Shown in pieces: positions 1,146 to 10,665 of a DNA stretch of 64,000 nucleotides. Origin of the DNA: an uncultured Thermoleophilia bacterium (GTDB lineage Bacteria > Actinomycetota > Thermoleophilia > RBG-16-64-13); NCBI GenBank assembly GCA_963772095.1, contig CAVYVU010000013.1, positions 39,358 to 103,357 on the forward strand, in the 5' to 3' direction. Position 1 is the first letter of the stretch. Each line of letters opens with the position of its first letter. The position numbers and the translations under genes are program-made. The notes under the pieces were generated by a model. It ran no database searches and had not been told where the DNA came from. It saw only the letters and a program-made list of their open reading frames with translations.

Positions 1146-1334
1146 ATGTGTCTGGCTAAGGTATACGTCCACACCGATGCTGCCGAAGAATTGGTCATGG
1201 AGAACGTCGCCCGTGTCGTCGTCAACGACGGCCAAGTCCTCCTGACGTCCATAATCATGGAGACCGAAGAGTTACAGGGCCGTATCACGAGCGTGGATTT
1301 CGCCAAGTCGAAGCTGGTGCTCGAGAGCGTTTAG
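1146..1334 (+). CDS. cooT: CooT family nickel-binding protein
   Basis: 62 aa starting MCLAKVY (Cys2 nickel ligand), with EELVMENV and ITSVDF...LVLE pattern typical of CooT. Confidence 0.85.
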   Translation: MCLAKVYVHTDAAEELVMENVARVVVNDGQVLLTSIIMETEELQGRITSVDFAKSKLVLESV

Positions 1335-1424
1335 TCTCGGCCCGCACGCTACGTTGACAGTCACGGGGATCGTAGATCCAAAGCTTTACTTTGGGTATCC
1401 GTCGACGGTGAGAAAGGGGCAGAG

Positions 1425-4400
1425 ATGGCCAACCAACCTCCTCACGAAATCACTGCAGAAAGCGGCCCGCCCGTAAGGATCTTCATCGATGGGCACCATC
1501 TGCAGGTGGATCCCGACGTGACGATCCTCGAAGCCGCACAGGCAAACGATATTTCGATACCGACGCTCTGCCACGACCCCCGTCTAACCCCGGTCGGCCG
1601 TTGTGGGCTGTGCCTCGTGGAGCTCGTGGACGCCGCGTGGTGGGAGGAACACCTGGCCAGAACGCTGGTCGCCGGCGACGGTGTAAACACCGTGTACGCC
1701 TGCCAGACCCCGGTGGCCGAGGGCATGGAGGTCATTACCTTAAGTCCGGCGATAGCAGAGGCGCGCCGGCTGCGGCTCAACGAGTTTCTCTCCAACCACA
1801 ACGCCTATTGTGAGCCACCCTGCCATTACGCCTGCCCGGCAGGCCTCGATATCCCTGGCTACCTGGCGGCGATCGCCCGGGGAGACGACGCCGACGCCGT
1901 CAGGATCGTCAAGCAGCGACTGCCGCTACCCCGGATCATCGGCCGGGTCTGCCCACGACCCTGCGAAGGCGCCTGCCGCCGGACCCAAGTGGACGAGCAA
2001 CCCGTGGCCATCTGCCAATTGAAGCGTTTCGCCGCCGACCGCGCGAGCGCCGGCCATAAGGCGAATATGGAAGAGAGCGCGCCGCCCAGCGGCAAGAAGA
2101 TCGCGGTCATCGGCAGTGGCCCATCGGGTCTCACCGCCGCCTATTACCTGGCTTTGGCCGGCCACCAAGTCACGATCTTCGAAGCCCTTTCCCAGCCCGG
2201 CGGCATGATGCTCAACGGCATCCCCCCGTATCGCCTGCCCCGGGAGACCATCGCGGAGGAAATCGATGACATCCTCCGGCTGGGCATAGAGTTGAGGCTC
2301 AACACGCGCGTTGGCGAGGAATTCACCTTTGACCGCCTTGAGGCTGAAGGTTTTGCCGCGACGTATCTGGCCATTGGCGCCCAGTGTGGCTCCACCGGCG
2401 GGATTCCCGGAGCCGAGGAGGGCGAGGGAATCTATTCGGCCGTTGATTTTCTTCGCGAGAGCAACGCCGGGTCGTGGGGAAAGCCTCTGGGCAGAACGCT
2501 GGTCGTTGGCGGCGGCTTCACCGCCATGGATGCCTCTCGGTCCTCGATGCGTCTTGGCGCAGAAGAAGTGACCGTAGTCTACCGCCGCACCCGCGAGGAG
2601 ATGCCGGCCACCGCGGACGAAGTAGCCGAGGCGGAGGAGGAAGGGGTCGACCTGCTACTACTCACCGCGCCGGTCTCCGTGGTCCGTGAAGACGGCAAGG
2701 TGACCGGCGTAGTCTGTCAAAAGATGGTGCTGGGCGAACCCGACCCGAGCGGTCGGCGGCGCCCGGAACCGGTACCAGGCTCTGAATTCACCATCGCGGC
2801 GGATACGGTCATCCTGGCCATCGGTCAAGACGTCGACGGACGCGACGTGGAGGATGTCTGCAACCTGACCCCCTGGGGCACCATCGAAGTCAACAAGCTT
2901 ACTTTGCTGACGAGCAAGCCAGGGGTCTTTGCCGGAGGAGACTGCGAGACCGGTCCCGGCACCGTGGTCGATGCCATAGCCGCCGGCCGTCGGGCCGCGG
3001 TCGCCATCGACGCATATGTCTCCGGGAAAGACCCCGAGGCAGCCTGCGCGGCTCCCGGGGCGCGCCTCGACCGACACCGGCCGAAGCTGTTCGACATCGG
3101 CGCCAAGCCGCTGTCCACGACCGCGCGCAGTCATATGCCCTTGCTCCCCGCGCCCGCCCGCCGGAACTTCGATGAGGTCGAGCTGGGCTTCGATGAGGCG
3201 GCGGCCAGGCAGGAAGCCGCCCGATGCCTGCAATGCACTTGCCATGAAGCCTCCACCTGCGAGCTGCAAAGCCTTTCTATCCGCTACGGCGCCGGCACGA
3301 CCGAGTTCAAGGGTGCGTTGGGGCAGTTCGACTTGTTCGACGGGTCGCCGATCCTGCAGCTCGACCGCAAACGCTGCATCCAGTGCCACACGTGCGTCCG
3401 TATCTGCGATGAAGTCGAGCAGTACCACGTCTACCAGGTGGACGATGCCGAGTACCCGGCACTCCGGGGGCAGACTTACCGGGATTCAGGTTGCGTGTCC
3501 TGCGGCCAGTGCATAGACGCCTGCCCCACAGGTGCTCTGGTGAATGCGCAGCTGAAGAGCGCCCGAGAATGGGAAATCACCAGGGTGCGGACCACGTGTC
3601 CGCTGTGCGGCACAGGCTGCAACTTCGATCTGAACGTCAAGGACGGCAGGGTCATCGGCGTCACGAGCGCCGCGGACGCCCCGGTCAACGGCAGCGCCTT
3701 GTGCGTGAAGGGCCGTTTCCACACCGATATGATCCATAGCCCCGACCGCCTCACCACTCCCTTGGTGAGAAAGAACGGCGTTTTGGAAGAGGCCAGCTGG
3801 GACGAGGCCATGAGCGTCGTAGCCCACCGGCTTGAAGAAATACGGGATCGGGACGGCGCCAACGCTTTCGCCGCCTTGAGCTCTGCTCGCTGCACCAACG
3901 AGGACAACTGGCTGATGCAGAAGTTCGTCAGAGTGGTGATGCGCACCAACAACCTCGACCACTGCGCCCGAACCTGACACGCTCCCACCGTGGCCGGTCT
4001 GGCCACATCATTTGGTAGCGCCGCCATGACAAACTCCCTCGACGAGGTGGAATTCTACGACGCCCTCTTCATCATCGGCGCTAACCCGACGGAGGCTCAT
4101 CCCATCATCGGTGGCAAGATGAAGCGTGCTGCAAGGCGCGGCGCCCGGCTCATCGTGGCCGATCCGCGGCACACCGAAATGGTCGACTACTCTCAATTGT
4201 GGCTGCAGCTCACCCCCGGCACCGACGCGGCCCTGGTCAACGGCATGATGAACATCATCATCAACGAAGGCTGGGCCGACCGCGAGTTCATCGCCGAGCG
4301 CTGCGAGGGATATGACGAGCTGTGGGAAGTGGTGCAGAGATACACCCCCGCTGTCGTCAGCGCGATCACCGGGGTTCCCGAAGACAAGCTGTACGCAGCC

Positions 4401-5598
4401 GCCGAGATCTACGCGCGCACCCCTCGGACCGGCATCTTCTACACCCTCGGCATCACCGAACACACCACTGGTACGGCCAACGTCATGAACCTGGCCAATC
4501 TGGCTATGGTCACCGGCCACGTCGGTAAGGCGCATTCCGGCGTCAACCCGCTCCGCGGTCAGAACAACGTCCAGGGAGCCTGTGATATGGGCGCCTTGCC
4601 GAACGTGTTGTCCGACTATCGGTCGGTGTCAGACGCCCAGACCAGGGAGACTTTCGAGCAGAGATGGGGGGTGAAGCTAGACGACAAGCCTGGGCTGCGC
4701 ATCCCGGAGATGTTCGACGCGATCATCAGCGGCGATCTCAAAGCCATGTACGTCATGGGCGAAGATCCGGTACTCACCGATGCCGATGCCAACCATGTCC
4801 GCAAGGCTATCGCGGGCCTCGAATTCCTGGTGGTCCAGGACATCTTCTTAACGGAGACGGCCAAATACGCGGATGTGGTGCTGCCGGCCGCCTGCTACGC
4901 GGAAAAAGACGGCACCTTCACCAACACCGAGCGCCGCGTGCAGCGGGTGCGCAAGGCGGTGGAACCTCCTGGCCAGGCGCGTGCCGATTGGGAGATCATT
5001 TGCGACCTGTCACGGCGCATGGGGTATGAGATGAACTATGACTCCCCGGCGGAGATCTTCGAGGAGATCAGGAGCCTCACGCCGTCCTATGCCGGGATGA
5101 CCTACGGCCGGGTGGACGCCTGCGGACTCCAATGGCCGTGTCCCGACATCGATCATCCGGGCACGCCCTATCTGCATGAAGCTACTTTTCCCCGGGGCAG
5201 GGGCAGATTGATCGGCATCGAGTCACGAGGCACCCGACGAACTCACAAACGAGGAGTATCCGATTCTTCTCACGACCGGGCGGATGCTCTATCAGTACAA
5301 CGTCTCCACCAGACGATCCGGGACCCTGGATTCGCTGGCGCCGCATGAACTAGCCGAGATCAATCCGGCGGACGCCGCCGCCATCGGAGTGTCCGAGGGA
5401 GAGAAGATGCGGGTCAGCTCGCGGCGCGGCTCGGTCGTGACCCGGGTGACGGTCACCGAACGCGTGCCCCCGGGGATTCTCTTCATGACCTTCCACTTCT
5501 TGGAAACAGCGGTGAACGAGCTGACCAATTCCGCCTACGACCCGATTTCCAATACGGCGGAATACAAGGTCTGCGCGGTCAGGATCGAAAAGGTTTAG
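1425..5598 (+). CDS. fdhF: Selenocysteine-containing formate dehydrogenase alpha subunit fused to 2Fe-2S and GltD-like NADPH/FAD modules (~1390 aa; one apparent +1 frameshift near 5223)
   Basis: In-frame TGA at 3975-3977 in NLDHCART-U-HAPTVAGL, matching the FdhF Sec site; the frame continues into ORF 3990..5348; removing one base near 5223 joins to YPILLTTGR...EYKVCAVRIEKV; Fer2, GltD (GSGPSG, GGGFTAMD, YRR), 2x4Fe-4S, CPLCGTGC and molybdopterin motifs present. Confidence 0.92.
3978..4010 (+). promoter_or_regulatory. Bacterial SECIS element
   Basis: Perfect hairpin GTGGCC-GGTCT-GGCCAC at 3990-4006, 12 nt after the UGA; the GGUCU apical sequence matches the E. coli fdhF SECIS as I recall it. 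Confidence 0.85.
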
Positions 5599-5849: not shown

Positions 5850-7596
5850 CTACCTGGGTATAACCGGCAGGATGACGTGCGACGCATGGTCCTTGTCGTG
5901 GTAGTAGGTGTCGCGTGCCGACCTTGATGCCGTAGTAGTGACCGCCGAAGTCGAGCGCCGGCGAATCGCCGCAGGCCACGTCGATGCGGATGCGGTGCCC
6001 CTTCTTGAACACGTTGCACGTCGGCCAGACCTCGATCTCGTACTTGTAGATCTTGCCCGGCTCGATGGGCTTGGGCTCGTCGTGCAGGTAGTACGGCCGG
6101 TACGGGCTTGGAGAGCTCCTCGCTCTTGGTGCAGGCGTGCGAGGCCTTGAGCCAACCCCGGGTGAGGATCAGGCCTTTGGACGGCATGCCCGGCACCTGC
6201 TCGGAGTCGGGCGCTTGATCGACCAGGCGGCAGAAGAAGTCGGTGTTCTGTCTGGTCGGAGGAGGCGTAGAGCACCAGCACGATGTTGCCCGAGACCTCC
6301 AGATCCTCTTCCAGCGGCGCGCTCGTGAAGGTGGGGATGCGGCGCTGCCCGTAGACGATGCCGTCGTCGATGACGGCCGTGCCGCCGCCGGAGAAGTGGG
6401 TCCAGTCCTGGTCGGGATAGGAGTAGGTGAAGGAGCTGTCTGGCCTCCGTCGGGCGCTTCCCAGGAGAGCTTGCCGTCGTTCAGCGACTCCACCGCGCCG
6501 CTCGGGCCGGGCCTGCAAGTAGAGCTTGCGGTAGTCGGTGCGGGCAAGCGGCCACTCGTTCTCCGGCCGGTACTCGTCGGCTCCGCGCACGAAGATGGTG
6601 ACCGGCGGTTCGTCCATGAAGCCGGTGTCGTTGCCCTTGAGCCAGTGGTCGTACCAGCGCAGCATGAGCAGCTGCATCTCGGGCGAGTTGTAGATGGCCA
6701 TCTCGTCGCCGTCCATGACGCCGTGGATGAGCATCATCTTCTTGGGCGTCTCGATCTCCTCGTAGCCGCGCACCACGCCGCGCAGGTGCAGGCCCACCTT
6801 GTGCAGGGCGCCCACCACGAACACCGGGCACCTGGATCTTCTTGAAGTCAGGGTTGCGCATCTTCCAGAAGTCGTCGTAGGTGGGATGGTTGATGCTCGT
6901 TCCAGACCATGTCCCACTTGCCCATCTCCGGGTTCGGCGCGGCGGCGTGCCGAAGCGGTCGGGGATGCCCAGGCGGTAGTGGCCGCGGATCTCCCACATG
7001 TGCCAGGCGGTCGGGAAGCCCACCGCCATGATGCCGCCGTGGAAGGCGATGTCGCGGTACAGATCGGCGCCGGCGTCCCAGGGCAGGATGCAGGTGAGGT
7101 GCGGCGGCTGCTGGACGGCGGTGAACCACTGGCTCCAGGCCAGCAGCGACTCGCCCAGCATGCCCACCTTGCCGTCGCACCAGTCCTGGACGGCGATCCA
7201 CTCGGTCATGTCGTAGAGGTCGTTCTGCATCTCCTGGCCGAACAGGTCCCACTGGCCGGTGGGCGAATGGCCGGTGCCGCGCGAGTCGGTGTGCACGAAG
7301 ACGTAGCCGCGGGAGACGAAGTAGTCGATGTCGTTGGTCTCCCGCATGTGGAAGATGGGGAGCAGCGGCAGGTGGTCCAGGTCTTTCTGGTAGGAGTCGG
7401 CCGCGTGGATGGCGGGGAACTTGCCCGGAGCATCCGGGCGGTAGATGTTGGCGGCGATCAGCGTGCCGTCGCGCATGGTGATCATGACGTCCCGCTCCAC
7501 CTTCATCGCGTACTGCGGCTTGCTCAGCTTGTCGGCCGGGAAGTCCTTGGGCAGCATGGTCCGCATGATCTCGGGCTTCAGGGTCTTTGAGTACAT
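5850..7596 (-). CDS. CocE/NonD family hydrolase (peptidase S15 fold), split by several frameshifts
   Basis: MRDGTLIAANIYRP, DSRGTGHS, nucleophile elbow GMLGESLLA, RWYDHWLKG, GHRIRIDV and SHVILPVIP are distributed over ORFs 6481..7596, 5850..6917, 5840..6547 and 5743..6012. Confidence 0.85.
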
Positions 7597-7671: not shown

Positions 7672-8478
7672 CTAGTTGTGGTTGAGCCCGCCGTCCACCA
7701 GAAGCGTCTGCCCGGCCATGAAGTCGCTGTCGGACGAGGCTAGGAAGAAGGCCGGACCGGCGAGATCATCGGCTTGCTCGCTCCGTTGGTTCAGACATTG
7801 CCCCTTGCGGGTCGCCTCCCAGTGCTCGGGAACGCCGGAAGCCTGTTCCATGTTGGCCGCGGTGAGGGTGAAACCGGGAGCAAGCGCGTTCACGCGGATG
7901 CCCTGCGGGCCCAGTTCGCGAGCCAGCGCCCGCGTGAAGCCGATGATGCCGCCCTTGCTGGAGACGTAGTGGATGAAGCCGGCCACGCCTTCCCAGAAGG
8001 TCGAAGAGGTCAGGTTGATGATCTTCCCGTATCCGAGGGGCTGCATGTACGGATGGACGGCTCGTGCGCAGAACCACATCCCCCGCAGGTTCACGTCCAG
8101 CATGTAGTCCCAGTCTTCGATCTTCCAATCGGTGAACGGCTGCCAGCTCTGCTTGGACATGACGCCGCGAAAGGCGGCTGCGTTGTTCACGAGGATGTCG
8201 ATCTTGCCCCCGTAGGTGTCGGCCAGCAGTTTGGCCGCCGCCTCGCATTGGTCGATGTGGGTGATGTCGCACGTGATGGGGATGGCCTCTCCCCCGTCAG
8301 CCTTGATCTCATCCGCTACCCACATGGCGCTTGGTCCGTCGATGTCCAGCACCCCGACCTTGGCCCCCTCTTTCGCAAAACGAAGGGCTATGGAGCGGCC
8401 GATGCTGTTGGTGCCGCCGCCACCCGTGATGAGCGCCACTTTTCCCTGCAGACGCTTCCCTTCGATCTCTTCGCTCAT
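7672..8478 (-). CDS. SDR family NAD(P)-dependent oxidoreductase
   Basis: TGGGGTNSIG Rossmann loop, NNAA, catalytic YVSSK, VNALAPG, GQTLLVDGG; real start MSEEIEG at 8478. Confidence 0.92.
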   Translation of the reverse strand: MSEEIEGKRLQGKVALITGGGGTNSIGRSIALRFAKEGAKVGVLDIDGPSAMWVADEIKADGGEAIPITCDITHIDQCEAAAKLLADTYGGKIDILVNNAAAFRGVMSKQSWQPFTDWKIEDWDYMLDVNLRGMWFCARAVHPYMQPLGYGKIINLTSSTFWEGVAGFIHYVSSKGGIIGFTRALARELGPQGIRVNALAPGFTLTAANMEQASGVPEHWEATRKGQCLNQRSEQADDLAGPAFFLASSDSDFMAGQTLLVDGGLNHN

Positions 8479-8617
8479 TGCTCTCCCCTTCGACTCGGAT
8501 ATGTGTCTTCGCCGTACGTTCGTCTTCTGGGAGCACCCGACCGTGTGCCGCTCCCCGGTTCGCCGCGAATCGGTATGTCGCGTCCCCTCTTGCCCCGGAT
8601 GGCTCGCCGCGGATCGG

Positions 8618-10582
8618 CTAGATCTCCAGTGCGGCCTCGAAACCTTCGTGCACCGCGTTGAACAGGATCCGGGGCGCCTTGCAGTCGCCCACCACGTGCA
8701 CTTCCGGGGCCGCATCCATGAGCTTCTCCACGACACCGGTCCGGGCCCGCAGATTGGCTGCGACCACCACGGCATCGGCGGACAGCTCCTGGAAGTGGCC
8801 ATTCGCGTCCCGGACGACGACCTTTCCGGCAAGCACTTCCTCCAAGACGACGCCCTTGCGCACCCTGATGCCGTATTCCTCCAGTTGGTCTTCCAGGACC
8901 ATCGCGTCCACGAAATTGACCGTCTGATCCTGCGCCGAACCGCCTGGTATCTCGACGATGGCCACCTGCTTGCCCTGGCGGGCAAGGTGGAGCGCGGCCT
9001 CCTGTGCCATGCCGCCTGCCCCAACAACCACAACCCGCGTTCCGGGAGCGTCCCGGCCACTCATGACGTCGCCCGCCAACAGGACGTTCGAACCAGTGAT
9101 CCCAGGCACGTCGGGCAATTCCGGTTCCGCCCCCACAGCCACGATCAGCTCGTCGGCGGCCTCGACCCGTAGGAGTTCGGCGGTCGCCTCGGTGCCCAAC
9201 CTGACCTCGACATCCCATTTCTTGAGCTCACGGAGCAAGTACTCGAGGAAGCGCTTCCAATCGTCCTTGAAGGCGGGCCCGGAAGAGGCCAGGAGATTGC
9301 CGCCCAGCCGGTCTTCTTTTTCGAAAAGCGTGACCTGATGGCCGCGACTACCGGCGATCACAGCAGCCTCCATCCCGGCCGGACCGCCCCCTACCACTAC
9401 CACCTTCTTCTTGCTGGCAGGCCGAGGCAGGCAACGATAGTAATCCTCCCGCACGCTCCAGGGATTGACGGCACATCTCACGGGCAAGCTGTGGGCCCCG
9501 CGGATAAGACAGCTGTTGCACCTGATGCACGGGACAACATCGTCTTTGCGTCCGCGGAAGGTCTTCTTGGGAAGGGCCGTGTCGGCGATAAGCGCACGGC
9601 ACAACGCGACTATGTCGGCCTTGCCGGTGGCGACCCACTCGCCCGCCTCGTCCAGGTCGAGGATGGCGCCGACCACCGCTACCGGGATGCTCACTGCGTT
9701 CTTGATCTGTGCCGCCCGATCGACGTTCTCGCCGTGGGGAAGATAAACGGAGGGGTGCGTGTACGGGTAGGTGCGCGCCTCGCTGATCATGCCCGCCGAC
9801 ACCTGAAAGCAGTCCACTTTGTCCTGCAATAACATGGCATACTCGATGGCGTCGTCGATCTCCATGCCCCCGGGCACCAGGTCGCTGGCGCTGATCCGCC
9901 ACTCGATGGGGAAGTCTGCTCCACAGCGCTCTTTGATGGCCTGGGCGACCCGGATCCCGAAACGGGCTCGATTCTCCAAGCTGCCGCCATACTCGTCCGA
10001 GCGGTGGTTTACGGCGGGGGACGTGAACTGCGAGATGAGCCAGCCGTGCCCGGCGTGGACCATGACCATGTCGAAGCCGGCCGTCTTCGCCCGGAACGCG
10101 GCAGCCGCATAGTGGTCGATGACCTCTTCGATCATCTCAAGGCTCATCTCTTCTATGACCTGCTCACCACGACGCCGGTCCTCGGTGAACTTGCCCACCA
10201 TGGCCGACGGCCCTATCGGGTTCCGGCCTCCGTTGAGTTGGCTCACGGCCTGGCGACCGCCATGGTTGATCTGGATGGAAGCCAGCGCACCATTGTCTTT
10301 GATCGCTTCCACCACTGAGGTCAAGGCGGGGATGTAGAAGTCGCTGCCCAGGTTGAGCTGCGTGGGCTGAGTGATGGCCCGGTCGGAATCTATGGCCGTC
10401 TCGAGAACGGTGATGATGCCGGCCCCACCCTTGGCCTGGGCCCGGTAGAACTCGACCAGTTCCCGTGAGACCGACTGGTCCGCGTAGGCGAGACAGGTGA
10501 GGGTCGGAGCGGCCTCGATGCGATTCTTGGCCGCCAGAACGCCGATTCGCACGGGTTCCAGAAGTGCTTCCCAGGACGCCAT
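8618..10582 (-). CDS. NADH:flavin oxidoreductase (FadH/BaiCD-like old-yellow-enzyme with 4Fe-4S and FAD domains)
   Basis: KNRIEAAP, HGGRQ, HAGHGWLISQFTSP...RSDEYGGSLENRARF, CIRCNSC...CAVNP, VVVGGGPAGMEAA; start MASWE at 10582. Confidence 0.92.
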   Translation of the reverse strand: MASWEALLEPVRIGVLAAKNRIEAAPTLTCLAYADQSVSRELVEFYRAQAKGGAGIITVLETAIDSDRAITQPTQLNLGSDFYIPALTSVVEAIKDNGALASIQINHGGRQAVSQLNGGRNPIGPSAMVGKFTEDRRRGEQVIEEMSLEMIEEVIDHYAAAAFRAKTAGFDMVMVHAGHGWLISQFTSPAVNHRSDEYGGSLENRARFGIRVAQAIKERCGADFPIEWRISASDLVPGGMEIDDAIEYAMLLQDKVDCFQVSAGMISEARTYPYTHPSVYLPHGENVDRAAQIKNAVSIPVAVVGAILDLDEAGEWVATGKADIVALCRALIADTALPKKTFRGRKDDVVPCIRCNSCLIRGAHSLPVRCAVNPWSVREDYYRCLPRPASKKKVVVVGGGPAGMEAAVIAGSRGHQVTLFEKEDRLGGNLLASSGPAFKDDWKRFLEYLLRELKKWDVEVRLGTEATAELLRVEAADELIVAVGAEPELPDVPGITGSNVLLAGDVMSGRDAPGTRVVVVGAGGMAQEAALHLARQGKQVAIVEIPGGSAQDQTVNFVDAMVLEDQLEEYGIRVRKGVVLEEVLAGKVVVRDANGHFQELSADAVVVAANLRARTGVVEKLMDAAPEVHVVGDCKAPRILFNAVHEGFEAALEI

Positions 10583-10665
10583 CTTCGAGCCCCTTTCCCA
10601 GCTTTCCAGCGGCATGATTCTCTCTTCGACTTCACTGACTGAGTACTTGCTCATTGGACCGATTA

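What the first reader, a model, noticed from the sequence alone, without database searches (positions are those of the whole stretch)
1425..5598. Single-chain, probably NADPH-linked selenocysteine formate dehydrogenase hidden as three ORFs
The ORF track breaks the gene at an in-frame TGA (3975-3977) lying exactly at the FdhF Sec position and followed by a SECIS hairpin. The joined ~1390-aa protein carries a 2Fe-2S domain, a GltD-like FAD module with the NADPH-type YRR motif, ferredoxin clusters and the Mo/W-bisPGD domain. Inference: a self-contained NADP-dependent formate dehydrogenase or CO2 reductase. The 2Fe-2S domain also has an unusual insert (AAWWEEHLARTLVAG). No sel genes are in the window.
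Basis: partly seen in the sequence, partly recalled or inferred. Interest (0 to 1): 0.7.

Follow-up and report, generated by a model that had tools for sequence, protein, structure and literature searches.

The report
Selenocysteine NADPH-type formate dehydrogenase, single chain
The three ORFs are one 1390-residue selenocysteine formate dehydrogenase fused to its own NADPH-type flavin module, a common but uncharacterised enzyme type that gene callers split; the extra break near 5223 is most likely an assembly error.

Summary
Window 1425-5598 (+) is one gene. It is broken once by an in-frame TGA (3975-3977) at the catalytic Sec/Cys position of FdhF, and once by a 1-nt insertion at 5223/5224.

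About 25 orthologues in Thermoleophilia/Gaiellales-like MAGs carry TGA at the same position. A hairpin with a GGUCU loop follows 12 nt downstream, is 99.4% paired and shows compensatory changes. It decays in the Cys (TGT/TGC) variants.

The domain order is [2Fe-2S], a GltD/NfnB-like FAD module with the NADPH-type YRR motif, FeS clusters, then a complete Mo/W-bisPGD FdhA. The N-terminal 1050 residues match NfnA/StnC of Bfu-type transhydrogenases, whose Fdh-like domain is degenerate. Here that domain is intact.

No partner genes lie next to the gene in six contexts. It closes a Wood-Ljungdahl cluster on the same contig.

The MAG is 66% complete. It has selD, itself with Sec, but no selA, selB or selC. 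Most relatives have selA and selB, and one checked selB locus also carries tRNA-Sec.

Frameshifts occur about once per 3.5 kb in this assembly, including in FolD, PyrD, ArgB and CODH. The break at 5223 is therefore probably technical.

The fused family has thousands of members. Verdict: correct but ordinary, a new member of a known kind.

The parts
1146..1334 (+). Upstream neighbour: 62-aa CooT-like gene (CO dehydrogenase accessory protein family)
   Evidence: Pfam PF10133 CooT, E=3e-17. CODH and ACS lie 6-10 kb upstream on the same contig.
1412..1427 (+). Shine-Dalgarno-like GAAAGGGG and the ATG start codon (1425-1427)
   Evidence: Read directly from the sequence. The N-terminus aligns with the starts of the relatives' genes.
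1425..5598 (+). Whole gene: 1390-codon fused formate dehydrogenase (one TGA=Sec; one extra base at 5223/5224; stop TAG 5596-5598)
   Evidence: It is 68-86% identical over its full length to orthologues in Thermoleophilia/Gaiellales-like MAGs.
1470..1739 (+). N-terminal [2Fe-2S] domain (Fer2_4; Cys49, 60, 63, 93)
   Evidence: Pfam PF13510, E=1e-15; Cys positions.
1626..1676 (+). Lineage-specific in-frame 51-nt insertion (approximate limits) between the 3rd and 4th Cys of the [2Fe-2S] domain; it starts with a 9-nt tandem duplication
   Evidence: Absent from 8 relatives in the DNA alignment. No other copy in the genome; repeat CTCGTGGA at 1614 and 1623.
1806..2987 (+). GltD/NfnB-like module: two [4Fe-4S] (Fer4_20), FAD site GSGPSGL (2112-2132), NAD(P)H site GGGFTAMD (2508-2531), YRR (2580-2588)
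   Evidence: Pfam PF14691 and PF07992. Alignments to NfnA 9bov, StnC 8oh5 and NfnB 5jca/4ylf keep YRRT.EMPA. Motif positions.
3225..3737 (+). Four further [4Fe-4S] sites: CxxCxCHx4C (3225-3260), ferredoxin dicluster (3372-3539), MopB cluster Cx2Cx3Cx27C (3579-3737)
   Evidence: Pfam Fer4_7, Fer4_Nqo3 and Molybdop_Fe4S4; Cys list.
3747..5015 (+). Molybdopterin (Mo/W-bisPGD) catalytic domain with U851-H852 and Arg1044
   Evidence: PF00384, E=1e-83. TIGR01591 scores 750 bits against a cut-off of 666. RGQNNVQG at residues 1044-1051.
3975..3977 (+). In-frame TGA = selenocysteine codon (residue 851)
   Evidence: Aligns with FdhH residue 140 and the catalytic Cys/Sec of solved FDHs. Of the fetched loci that carry the active-site motif, 29 copies have TGA at this position and 7 have TGT/TGC.
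3990..4006 (+). SECIS upper hairpin GUGGCC-GGUCU-GGCCAC, starting 12 nt after the UGA
   Evidence: MFE fold. 99.4% paired with compensatory changes at 2 of 6 pairs. The stem or loop is degraded in most Cys-codon variants.
5223..5224 (+). One extra base: the window reads GAG-TCAC-GAG where every relative reads GAG-TAC-GAR (Glu-Tyr-Glu). This shifts the frame by +1.
   Evidence: TIGR01591 profile positions 1-553 match in one frame and 551-672 in the next.
5266..5577 (+). Molydop_binding (pterin dinucleotide-binding) C-terminal domain, in the +1 frame
   Evidence: PF01568, E=7e-32. About 90% identical to L011 in this frame.

Best explanation
Window 1425-5598 encodes one cytoplasmic, self-contained formate dehydrogenase / CO2 reductase of about 152 kDa.

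Shown by sequence:
- UGA851 lies at the catalytic Sec position and is followed by a conserved fdhF-type SECIS.
- The chain carries one [2Fe-2S] site, a GltD/NfnB-like FAD module with an NADPH-type YRR motif, six [4Fe-4S] sites and a complete Mo/W-bisPGD FdhA domain with Sec-His-Arg.

Inferred, by analogy with the cryo-EM structures of NfnA and StnC:
- NADPH gives a hydride to FAD.
- Electrons pass one at a time through the two Fer4_20 clusters and the NuoG-like clusters.
- They then follow the branch that is a dead end in NfnA, reach the pterin site and reduce CO2 to formate. The reaction is reversible.

The gene closes a Wood-Ljungdahl cluster on the same contig. Its likely role is therefore the first step of the methyl branch, or the last step when methyl groups are oxidised.

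The frameshift at 5223/5224 is most likely a consensus error of the assembly, not biology.
For: Gene and domains.

Sec position. TGA conserved in orthologues, and the hairpin weakened in Cys variants. SECIS covariation.

Sec use by this organism: selD carries UGA at the Cys17-equivalent site (SHGSGUACK) with a hairpin 13 nt downstream. selA is present in 19 of 26 relatives and selB in 16 of 26, side by side; tRNA-Sec lies beside selB in one relative.

NADPH module: 50-60% identical to the NADPH-binding NfnA and StnC, with YRR kept. Arg-Arg binds the 2'-phosphate in Fdh3B (PMC8965080). Moorella's NADPH-dependent Fdh is encoded by sfrB2, sfrA2 and fdhF3 (PMC13040438).

Cofactor count: identical to NfnA, with 1 [2Fe-2S], 6 [4Fe-4S] and FAD (PMC11829005).

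Stand-alone: no NuoE/F-like neighbours in six contexts.

Pathway context: FTHFS, FolD and MetF, AcsE, ACS and CODH and CooT are on the same contig. In a relative the gene sits beside FTHFS, FolD, MTHFR and a corrinoid protein.

Frameshift as artefact: 5 of 17 orthologues of real proteins are frame-broken, including FolD, PyrD and ArgB, about 1 break per 3.5 kb. CODH is in three pieces and ACS in two. The C-terminal domain shows no decay.
Against: - selA, selB and tRNA-Sec were not found in this MAG. The best tRNA-Sec model hit is tRNA-Ser(UGA).
- The two same-genus genomes lack this gene, so no near-identical copy could confirm the reading frame or the 51-nt insert.
A real, recent inactivating mutation cannot be excluded.
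- The inserted base is not in a homopolymer.
- NADPH specificity, the metal (W or Mo) and the direction of the reaction rest on homology only.
- No member of the single-chain family was found to be characterised in the literature searched.
Confidence: 0.78

Rival explanations
1. Pseudogene. The 1-nt insertion at 5223/5224 is real. The protein loses its Molydop_binding domain and the enzyme is dead in this organism.
For: The assembly shows the extra base outside any homopolymer. The two same-genus genomes lack the gene altogether, so the genus can apparently do without it. Reads were not available.
Against: Frame breaks are found all over this MAG, including in essential genes (FolD, PyrD, ArgB) and in CODH/ACS, at about 1 per 3.5 kb. 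The 124 codons after the shift remain open and about 90% identical to relatives. There is no other lesion in 4.1 kb.
Confidence: 0.12
2. The enzyme is not self-contained. Like NfnA/StnC, its N-terminal [2Fe-2S] domain docks a HydBC/BfuBC-like module or ferredoxin encoded elsewhere. This would make a bifurcating or confurcating CO2 reductase.
For: Residues 17-1059 align with StnC and NfnA over their whole length. In those enzymes the [2Fe-2S] A1 cluster is the exit to the BfuB flavin (PMC11829005, PMC10482914). A NuoF-like gene lies about 18 kb upstream in the same Wood-Ljungdahl cluster.
Against: No NuoE/F-like gene is adjacent in the window or in five other contexts from four phyla. Nfn/Stn subunit genes are co-operonic. 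Moorella's homologous modules work with NADPH alone (PMC13040438).
Confidence: 0.08
3. The TGA is a true stop. An 850-aa FAD/FeS protein and a separate 540-aa pterin protein are made, as public annotations of the relatives show.
For: Gene callers annotate the orthologues as 831 aa plus 523 aa products. selA, selB and selC are not found in this MAG.
Against: The split would cut the Molybdopterin domain in the middle and remove the catalytic residue. TGA alternates only with TGT/TGC at this codon. The hairpin covaries. selD of the same genome is also UGA-interrupted at its active site.
Confidence: 0.02

Closest known systems
Moorella thermoacetica NADP-dependent formate dehydrogenase (tungsten-selenium-iron protein; genes sfrB2, sfrA2, fdhF3)
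   Same: A Sec-containing FdhF-type catalytic unit is fed by a GltD/SfrB-like NADPH flavoprotein and FeS carriers. It is a cytoplasmic CO2 reductase of the Wood-Ljungdahl pathway (PMC13040438, PMC5736913).
   Different: Moorella has separate polypeptides; here there is one 1390-aa chain.
NfnA of Bfu-type NfnABC (C. saccharolyticus, PDB 9bov; archaeal 9n5u) and StnC of Sporomusa ovata Stn (PDB 8oh5)
   Same: The domain order is the same: [2Fe-2S] NTD, NfnL/GltD-like FAD-NADPH module, then NuoG/Fdh-like domain. The cofactor count is the same. The match is E=1e-200 over residues 17-1057, and the flavin module is 50-60% identical.
   Different: In NfnA and StnC the pterin site is incomplete and the Fdh-like branch is described as an inactive evolutionary remnant (PMC11829005, PMC10482914). 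They also need BfuBC/StnAB partners. Here the FdhA domain is complete, with Sec-His-Arg and Molydop_binding, and no partner genes are adjacent.
E. coli FdhH (FdhF, PDB 1aa6) and HDCR FdhF of T. kivui (PDB 7qv7)
   Same: These are the best matches to residues 719-1390 (E=2e-222 for 7qv7). The Sec position equals FdhH residue 140. The SECIS geometry matches fdhF: 12 nt, then a 6-bp stem with a GGUCU loop. The comparison with the E. coli SECIS is from my own knowledge.
   Different: Those enzymes lack the N-terminal 700 residues and hand electrons to hydrogenase modules, not NADP.
Thermococcus onnurineus Fdh3 (NADP-dependent, W-containing)
   Same: An FdhA works with an NfnB-like NADP-binding subunit that has the Arg-Arg 2'-phosphate motif. 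It shows reversible CO2 reduction with NADPH (PMC8965080).
   Different: Fdh3 is a four-subunit enzyme with Cys rather than Sec.

Membership tests
FdhA/FdhF-type Mo/W-bisPGD formate dehydrogenase (TIGR01591) | Score above the curated equivalog cut-off | tested here: met
   750.2 bits against a cut-off of 666.25 for the part before the frameshift. A further 104.5 bits covers profile positions 551-672 in the +1 frame.
FdhA/FdhF-type Mo/W-bisPGD formate dehydrogenase (TIGR01591) | Catalytic Sec/Cys-His pair and the conserved Arg | tested here: met
   U851-H852 align with the catalytic residue of 7qv7, 9t1s, 6tg9 and 1aa6. R1044 lies in RGQNNVQG. The Cys-His-Arg triad is as described in PMC8965080.
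FdhA/FdhF-type Mo/W-bisPGD formate dehydrogenase (TIGR01591) | MopB [4Fe-4S] motif and complete pterin-binding domains | tested here: met
   Molybdop_Fe4S4, Molybdopterin (profile 1-352 of 353) and Molydop_binding (2-110 of 110) are all matched. The last needs the frame correction at 5223.
FdhA/FdhF-type Mo/W-bisPGD formate dehydrogenase (TIGR01591) | Formate oxidation / CO2 reduction activity | not testable with these tools
   Needs enzyme assays.
Bacterial selenoprotein gene (SelB/SECIS-dependent UGA recoding) | In-frame UGA at a position held by Cys or Sec in homologues | tested here: met
Bacterial selenoprotein gene (SelB/SECIS-dependent UGA recoding) | Hairpin just downstream of the UGA with a conserved G/U-containing apical loop, maintained by compensatory change | tested here: met
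   No Rfam family reached its gathering score in the window.
Bacterial selenoprotein gene (SelB/SECIS-dependent UGA recoding) | selA, selB, selC and selD in the genome | tested here: inconclusive
   selD is present and itself has Sec. selA, selB and selC are absent from a MAG that is 66% complete and has only 31 tRNAs. selA is in 19 of 26 relatives and selB in 16 of 26.
NfnA/StnC subunit of Bfu-type transhydrogenases | [2Fe-2S], NfnL/GltD-like and Fdh/NuoG-like domain order | tested here: met
NfnA/StnC subunit of Bfu-type transhydrogenases | Catalytically inactive Fdh-like domain with an incomplete pterin site | tested here: not met
   The FdhA domain is complete and above the TIGR01591 cut-off, and it carries Sec.
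NfnA/StnC subunit of Bfu-type transhydrogenases | Encoded next to BfuB/BfuC (HydB/HydC-like) subunit genes | tested here: not met
   None is found beside the gene in the window or in L074, L076, L087, L088 or L089.
NADPH-specific GltD/NfnB-type flavoprotein module | FAD and NAD(P)H Rossmann motifs plus the Arg-Arg that binds the 2'-phosphate | tested here: met
   GSGPSGL at 230-236, GGGFTAMD at 362-369 and YRR at 386-388. These align with NfnB, StnC and NfnA. Actual cofactor preference was not tested.

The most novel reading that the evidence does not exclude
The single-chain enzyme may be the still-active form of the scaffold from which NfnA/StnC of the Bfu transhydrogenases derive. Its conserved N-terminal [2Fe-2S] domain would then be a working third port to ferredoxin or to a BfuBC-like module encoded elsewhere. 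The protein would couple NADPH, CO2/formate and a third carrier, as a bifurcating or confurcating CO2 reductase in one chain.
Probability: 0.08. Interest if true: 0.6.

Novelty: new member of a known kind. Interest (0 to 1): 0.27.

Why it matters
For this genome, the result corrects three ORF calls into one enzyme. It assigns the CO2/formate step of the organism's Wood-Ljungdahl cluster and shows that an uncultured Thermoleophilia-like actinobacterium uses selenocysteine.

More generally, a one-polypeptide NADPH-driven CO2 reductase is attractive for biocatalysis. It is also the natural active counterpart of the 'remnant' Fdh-like domain seen in NfnA/StnC structures.

However, thousands of such fused genes already sit in public databases under the name 'formate dehydrogenase subunit alpha', so this copy adds little.

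The practical lesson is that this MAG has about one frameshift per 3.5 kb. Any 'split gene' or 'pseudogene' finding in it should be distrusted.

Tried and rejected
- Rfam at gathering thresholds found nothing in the window, so the SECIS was judged by covariation instead.
- The folding energy of the hairpin alone is not significant in this GC-rich DNA.
- An exact-sequence look-up of the 850-aa ORF found no other assembly.
- The flanks of the gene are not syntenic with those of close relatives.
- My first frameshift census used all long ORFs of related loci. It was inflated by shadow ORFs and by errors in nanopore MAGs. I replaced it with short-read loci and then with called proteins.
- The best tRNA-Sec model hit (46.6 bits against a cut-off of 47) turned out to be tRNA-Ser(UGA).
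- The same-genus genomes G001 and G002 lack the gene.
- A scan for a second FdhA-type active site in the genome found only this one, and there is no second copy of the fused gene.
- Programmed +1 frameshifting was rejected because no relative has the extra base.
- The 51-nt insert is not a repeat or mobile element.
- Literature searches for a characterised single-chain GltD-FdhA gave nothing.
Full report
**What is in the sequence**

The ORF list shows three ORFs on the + strand: 1425-3977, 3990-5348 and 5284-5598. Translating 1425-5598 with TGA read through gives a sensible protein up to about residue 1266. After that it becomes low-complexity nonsense with a second TGA.

The +1 frame from about 5224 reads HEAPDELTNEEYPILLTTGR...KVCAVRIEKV and ends at TAG 5596-5598. 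Pfam finds these domains in the first frame:
- Fer2_4 (residues 16-105)
- Fer4_20 (128-208)
- Pyr_redox_2 (225-521)
- a ferredoxin dicluster (645-705)
- Molybdop_Fe4S4 (719-771)
- Molybdopterin (775-1197)

Molydop_binding (E=7e-32) is found only in the +1 frame. NCBIfam TIGR01591 (formate dehydrogenase subunit alpha) scores 750 bits against a cut-off of 666 on profile positions 1-553. The rest, 551-672, matches in the +1 frame. The three ORFs are therefore one gene of 1390 codons, interrupted by one TGA and one frameshift.

**The TGA is a selenocysteine codon**

A 101-residue piece around the TGA matches solved formate dehydrogenases. The codon falls on the catalytic Cys of HDCR FdhF and R. 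capsulatus FdsA, and on the X of the F420-dependent enzyme. The match to E. coli FdhH runs query 6-101 against chain 109-204, which puts the codon at residue 140. That FdhH residue 140 is Sec is from my own knowledge.

A scan of species-representative genomes returned 49 related loci. The closest (68-86% identity over the full length) are uncultured Thermoleophilia/Gaiellales/Actinomycetes MAGs. Among the loci that carry the active-site motif, 29 copies have TGA at this codon and 7 have TGT or TGC.

Twelve nucleotides after the UGA lies the hairpin GUGGCC-GGUCU-GGCCAC (3990-4006). Its energy alone is unremarkable. In an alignment of 30 TGA-bearing sequences (28 distinct):
- the six pairs are 99.4% paired;
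- two pairs change on both sides (GC/AU/CG/UA at one pair, CG/AU at another);
- no shuffle of 500 reaches the covariation score;
- slid registers collapse to 18-52% paired.

The GGUCU loop is the same in all but one sequence. In most Cys-codon variants the stem or the loop is degraded. Spacing, stem length and loop match the E. coli fdhF SECIS as I recall it.

**Selenocysteine machinery**

The window's genome is a MAG of 2.73 Mb in 28 contigs, estimated 66% complete.
- selD is present on another contig (395 bits against a cut-off of 125) with one in-frame TGA.
- Translation gives METPPRLTTLSHGSGUACKLGPKDL. Sec sits at the active-site Cys position of SelD, and a 7-bp hairpin starts 13 nt downstream. 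The organism therefore has at least two UGA-Sec genes.
- selA gave no hit, and selB gave only EF-Tu-like hits below the cut-off.
- ARAGORN finds 31 tRNAs and none is tRNA-Sec.
- The best RF01852 hit (46.6 bits against 47) is tRNA-Ser(UGA).

Among 26 genomes (own plus relatives), selA is found in 19 and selB in 16, always side by side. One same-genus MAG has selA cut by a contig end. In one relative tRNA-Sec lies next to selB. A single missing locus would thus explain the absence of all three genes.

**The frameshift**

All relatives read GAG-TAC-GAR (Glu-Tyr-Glu) where the window reads GAG-TCAC-GAG. That is one extra base. The 124 codons after it stay open and about 90% identical to relatives.

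I asked whether such breaks are usual in this assembly. I used 20 called proteins from two relatives as tblastn queries; 17 had usable orthologues.
- 12 orthologues are intact.
- 5 are frame-broken: FolD, the MetV-like DUF5981 (twice), dihydroorotate dehydrogenase, acetylglutamate kinase and a glycosyltransferase.
- That is 6 breaks in about 20 kb.

A stricter census using short-read loci gave 13 events in 52 kb. CODH is in three frame pieces and ACS in two. AcsE has a 1-nt deletion relative to a 75%-identical DNA alignment.

In the window itself, the S15 peptidase next door is split into two overlapping ORFs in different frames. Two nanopore MAGs among the relatives show similar breaks in this very gene.

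One break in a 4.2-kb gene is what this error rate predicts. I rate the break as technical at about 85%.

**The insert**

Relative to eight orthologues, the window has 51 extra in-frame bases between the third and fourth Cys of the [2Fe-2S] domain. They give ...VELVDAAWWEEHLARTLVAGDGVNTVYACQT where relatives have ...VEVAGDGLVYACQT. The segment has no other copy in the genome. It begins with a 9-nt tandem duplication, CTCGTGGAG/CTCGTGGAC. It is a private loop extension of unknown consequence and needs read support.

**How it probably works**

Residues 17-1057 match NfnA of the C. saccharolyticus NfnABC (9bov, E=1e-200). Residues 17-1059 match StnC of Sporomusa ovata (8oh5), and residues 17-786 match an archaeal NfnA (9n5u). 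Residues 719-1390 match HDCR FdhF (7qv7, E=2e-222).

The flavin module is 50-60% identical to these NADPH-binding proteins. It keeps GGG.TAMD...YRRT.EMPA, as do NfnB of P. furiosus and T. maritima. In T. onnurineus Fdh3B two adjacent Arg residues, conserved in its homologues, are said to hold the 2'-phosphate of NADP(H) (PMC8965080).

The Cys inventory gives one [2Fe-2S] and six [4Fe-4S] sites plus FAD. This is the same set as in NfnA (PMC11829005). In NfnA the A2-A4-A5 branch into the Fdh-like domain is called a non-functional evolutionary remnant, because the pterin site is incomplete (PMC11829005). In StnC the FdhF domain is described as catalytically inactive (PMC10482914). Here the pterin domains are complete and carry Sec-His-Arg.

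The inferred path is NADPH to FAD, then the two Fer4_20 clusters, the NuoG-like clusters, the MopB cluster, W/Mo-bisPGD, and finally CO2/formate.

The characterised Moorella NADPH-dependent Fdh uses the same kinds of modules as separate gene products (sfrB2, sfrA2, fdhF3; PMC13040438). CO2 reduction by NADPH is close to equilibrium at cellular potentials, so either direction is possible (PMC13040438).

**Stand-alone enzyme and physiological context**

No NuoE/F-like (BfuBC) gene lies next to the gene in any of these contexts:
- the window;
- two close relatives;
- three distant full-length homologues, one labelled Rhodospirillaceae, one Thermoplasmata and one unnamed.

On the window's contig the gene follows a CooT-like gene. 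Upstream on the same contig lie FTHFS, FolD, MetV and MetF, AcsE, and ACS and CODH. In one relative the gene overlaps a corrinoid-protein gene and sits beside FTHFS, FolD and MTHFR. It is therefore the CO2/formate enzyme of a Wood-Ljungdahl or methyl-oxidation module.

**How new it is**

The homology search scored 6946 proteins among the 8000 best candidates. The top 120 split roughly in half:
- full-length fusions of 1307-1448 aa at 45-54% identity, from many phyla; the few that carry an NCBI name are called 'formate dehydrogenase subunit alpha';
- fragments of 808-871 aa at 68-78% identity, which are the Sec-truncated orthologues.

Three full-length proteins at 71-78% identity have Cys at the site. 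Sec-split FdhA genes are a well-known annotation artefact. I found no paper that characterises a single-chain member. The family is common but unstudied biochemically.

**Verdict**

Observation confirmed and interpretation supported. This is a new member of a known kind with modest interest.

The one less ordinary idea my data leave open is that the conserved N-terminal [2Fe-2S] domain is a third electron port. I put this at 8% because of the consistent lack of partner genes.

Noticed in passing
window 5850-7596 (-): An S15-family (CocE/NonD-like) peptidase is split into two overlapping ORFs in different frames. Peptidase_S15 is in 6481-7596 and PepX_C in 5850-6917. This is probably another 1-nt assembly error, between about 6620 and 6820.
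   Followed up: partly
whole genome G000 (e.g. C13:10831-12427, C13:19506, C14:21884, C16:238736, C16:247787, C13:31341, C13:32969-34017): The MAG carries about one frame-breaking indel per 3.5 kb of conserved coding sequence. Affected genes include FolD, PyrD, ArgB, AcsE, ACS and CODH. Split-gene, pseudogene and lost-motif findings from this genome need read-level confirmation.
   Followed up: yes
window 1146-1334 (+): A 62-aa CooT-like gene (CODH nickel accessory family) sits directly upstream of the formate dehydrogenase. It is not upstream of the gene in the relatives examined.
   Followed up: partly
G000 contig C13:8451-34477 (upstream of the window, which starts at C13:39358): A Wood-Ljungdahl gene set lies on the same contig: FTHFS, FTCD_C-like, FolD, MetV-like, MetF, AcsE-like, a NuoF-like gene, ACS and CODH. 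This uncultured Thermoleophilia-like actinobacterium appears to have the full pathway.
   Followed up: partly
G000 C10:63894-64817 (-) (locus L007 about 1357-2441): selD is itself a selenoprotein (SHGSGUACK). It has a 7-bp hairpin with a GGAC loop 13 nt after the UGA and a strong AGAGGAGG ribosome-binding site.
   Followed up: yes
L023:13740 (second TGA-containing FdhA-like active site in one relative's locus): One relative carries a second Sec-type FdhA gene (HCARL-TGA-HAPTVAGLATTFGSGA) about 5 kb downstream of the fused one, with the same SECIS hairpin.
   Followed up: no
window 7672-10654 (-): An SDR gene and a 2,4-dienoyl-CoA-reductase-like OYE/FAD gene lie downstream on the opposite strand. 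The apparent 440-nt overlap is only a long-ORF extension in GC-rich DNA.
   Followed up: no
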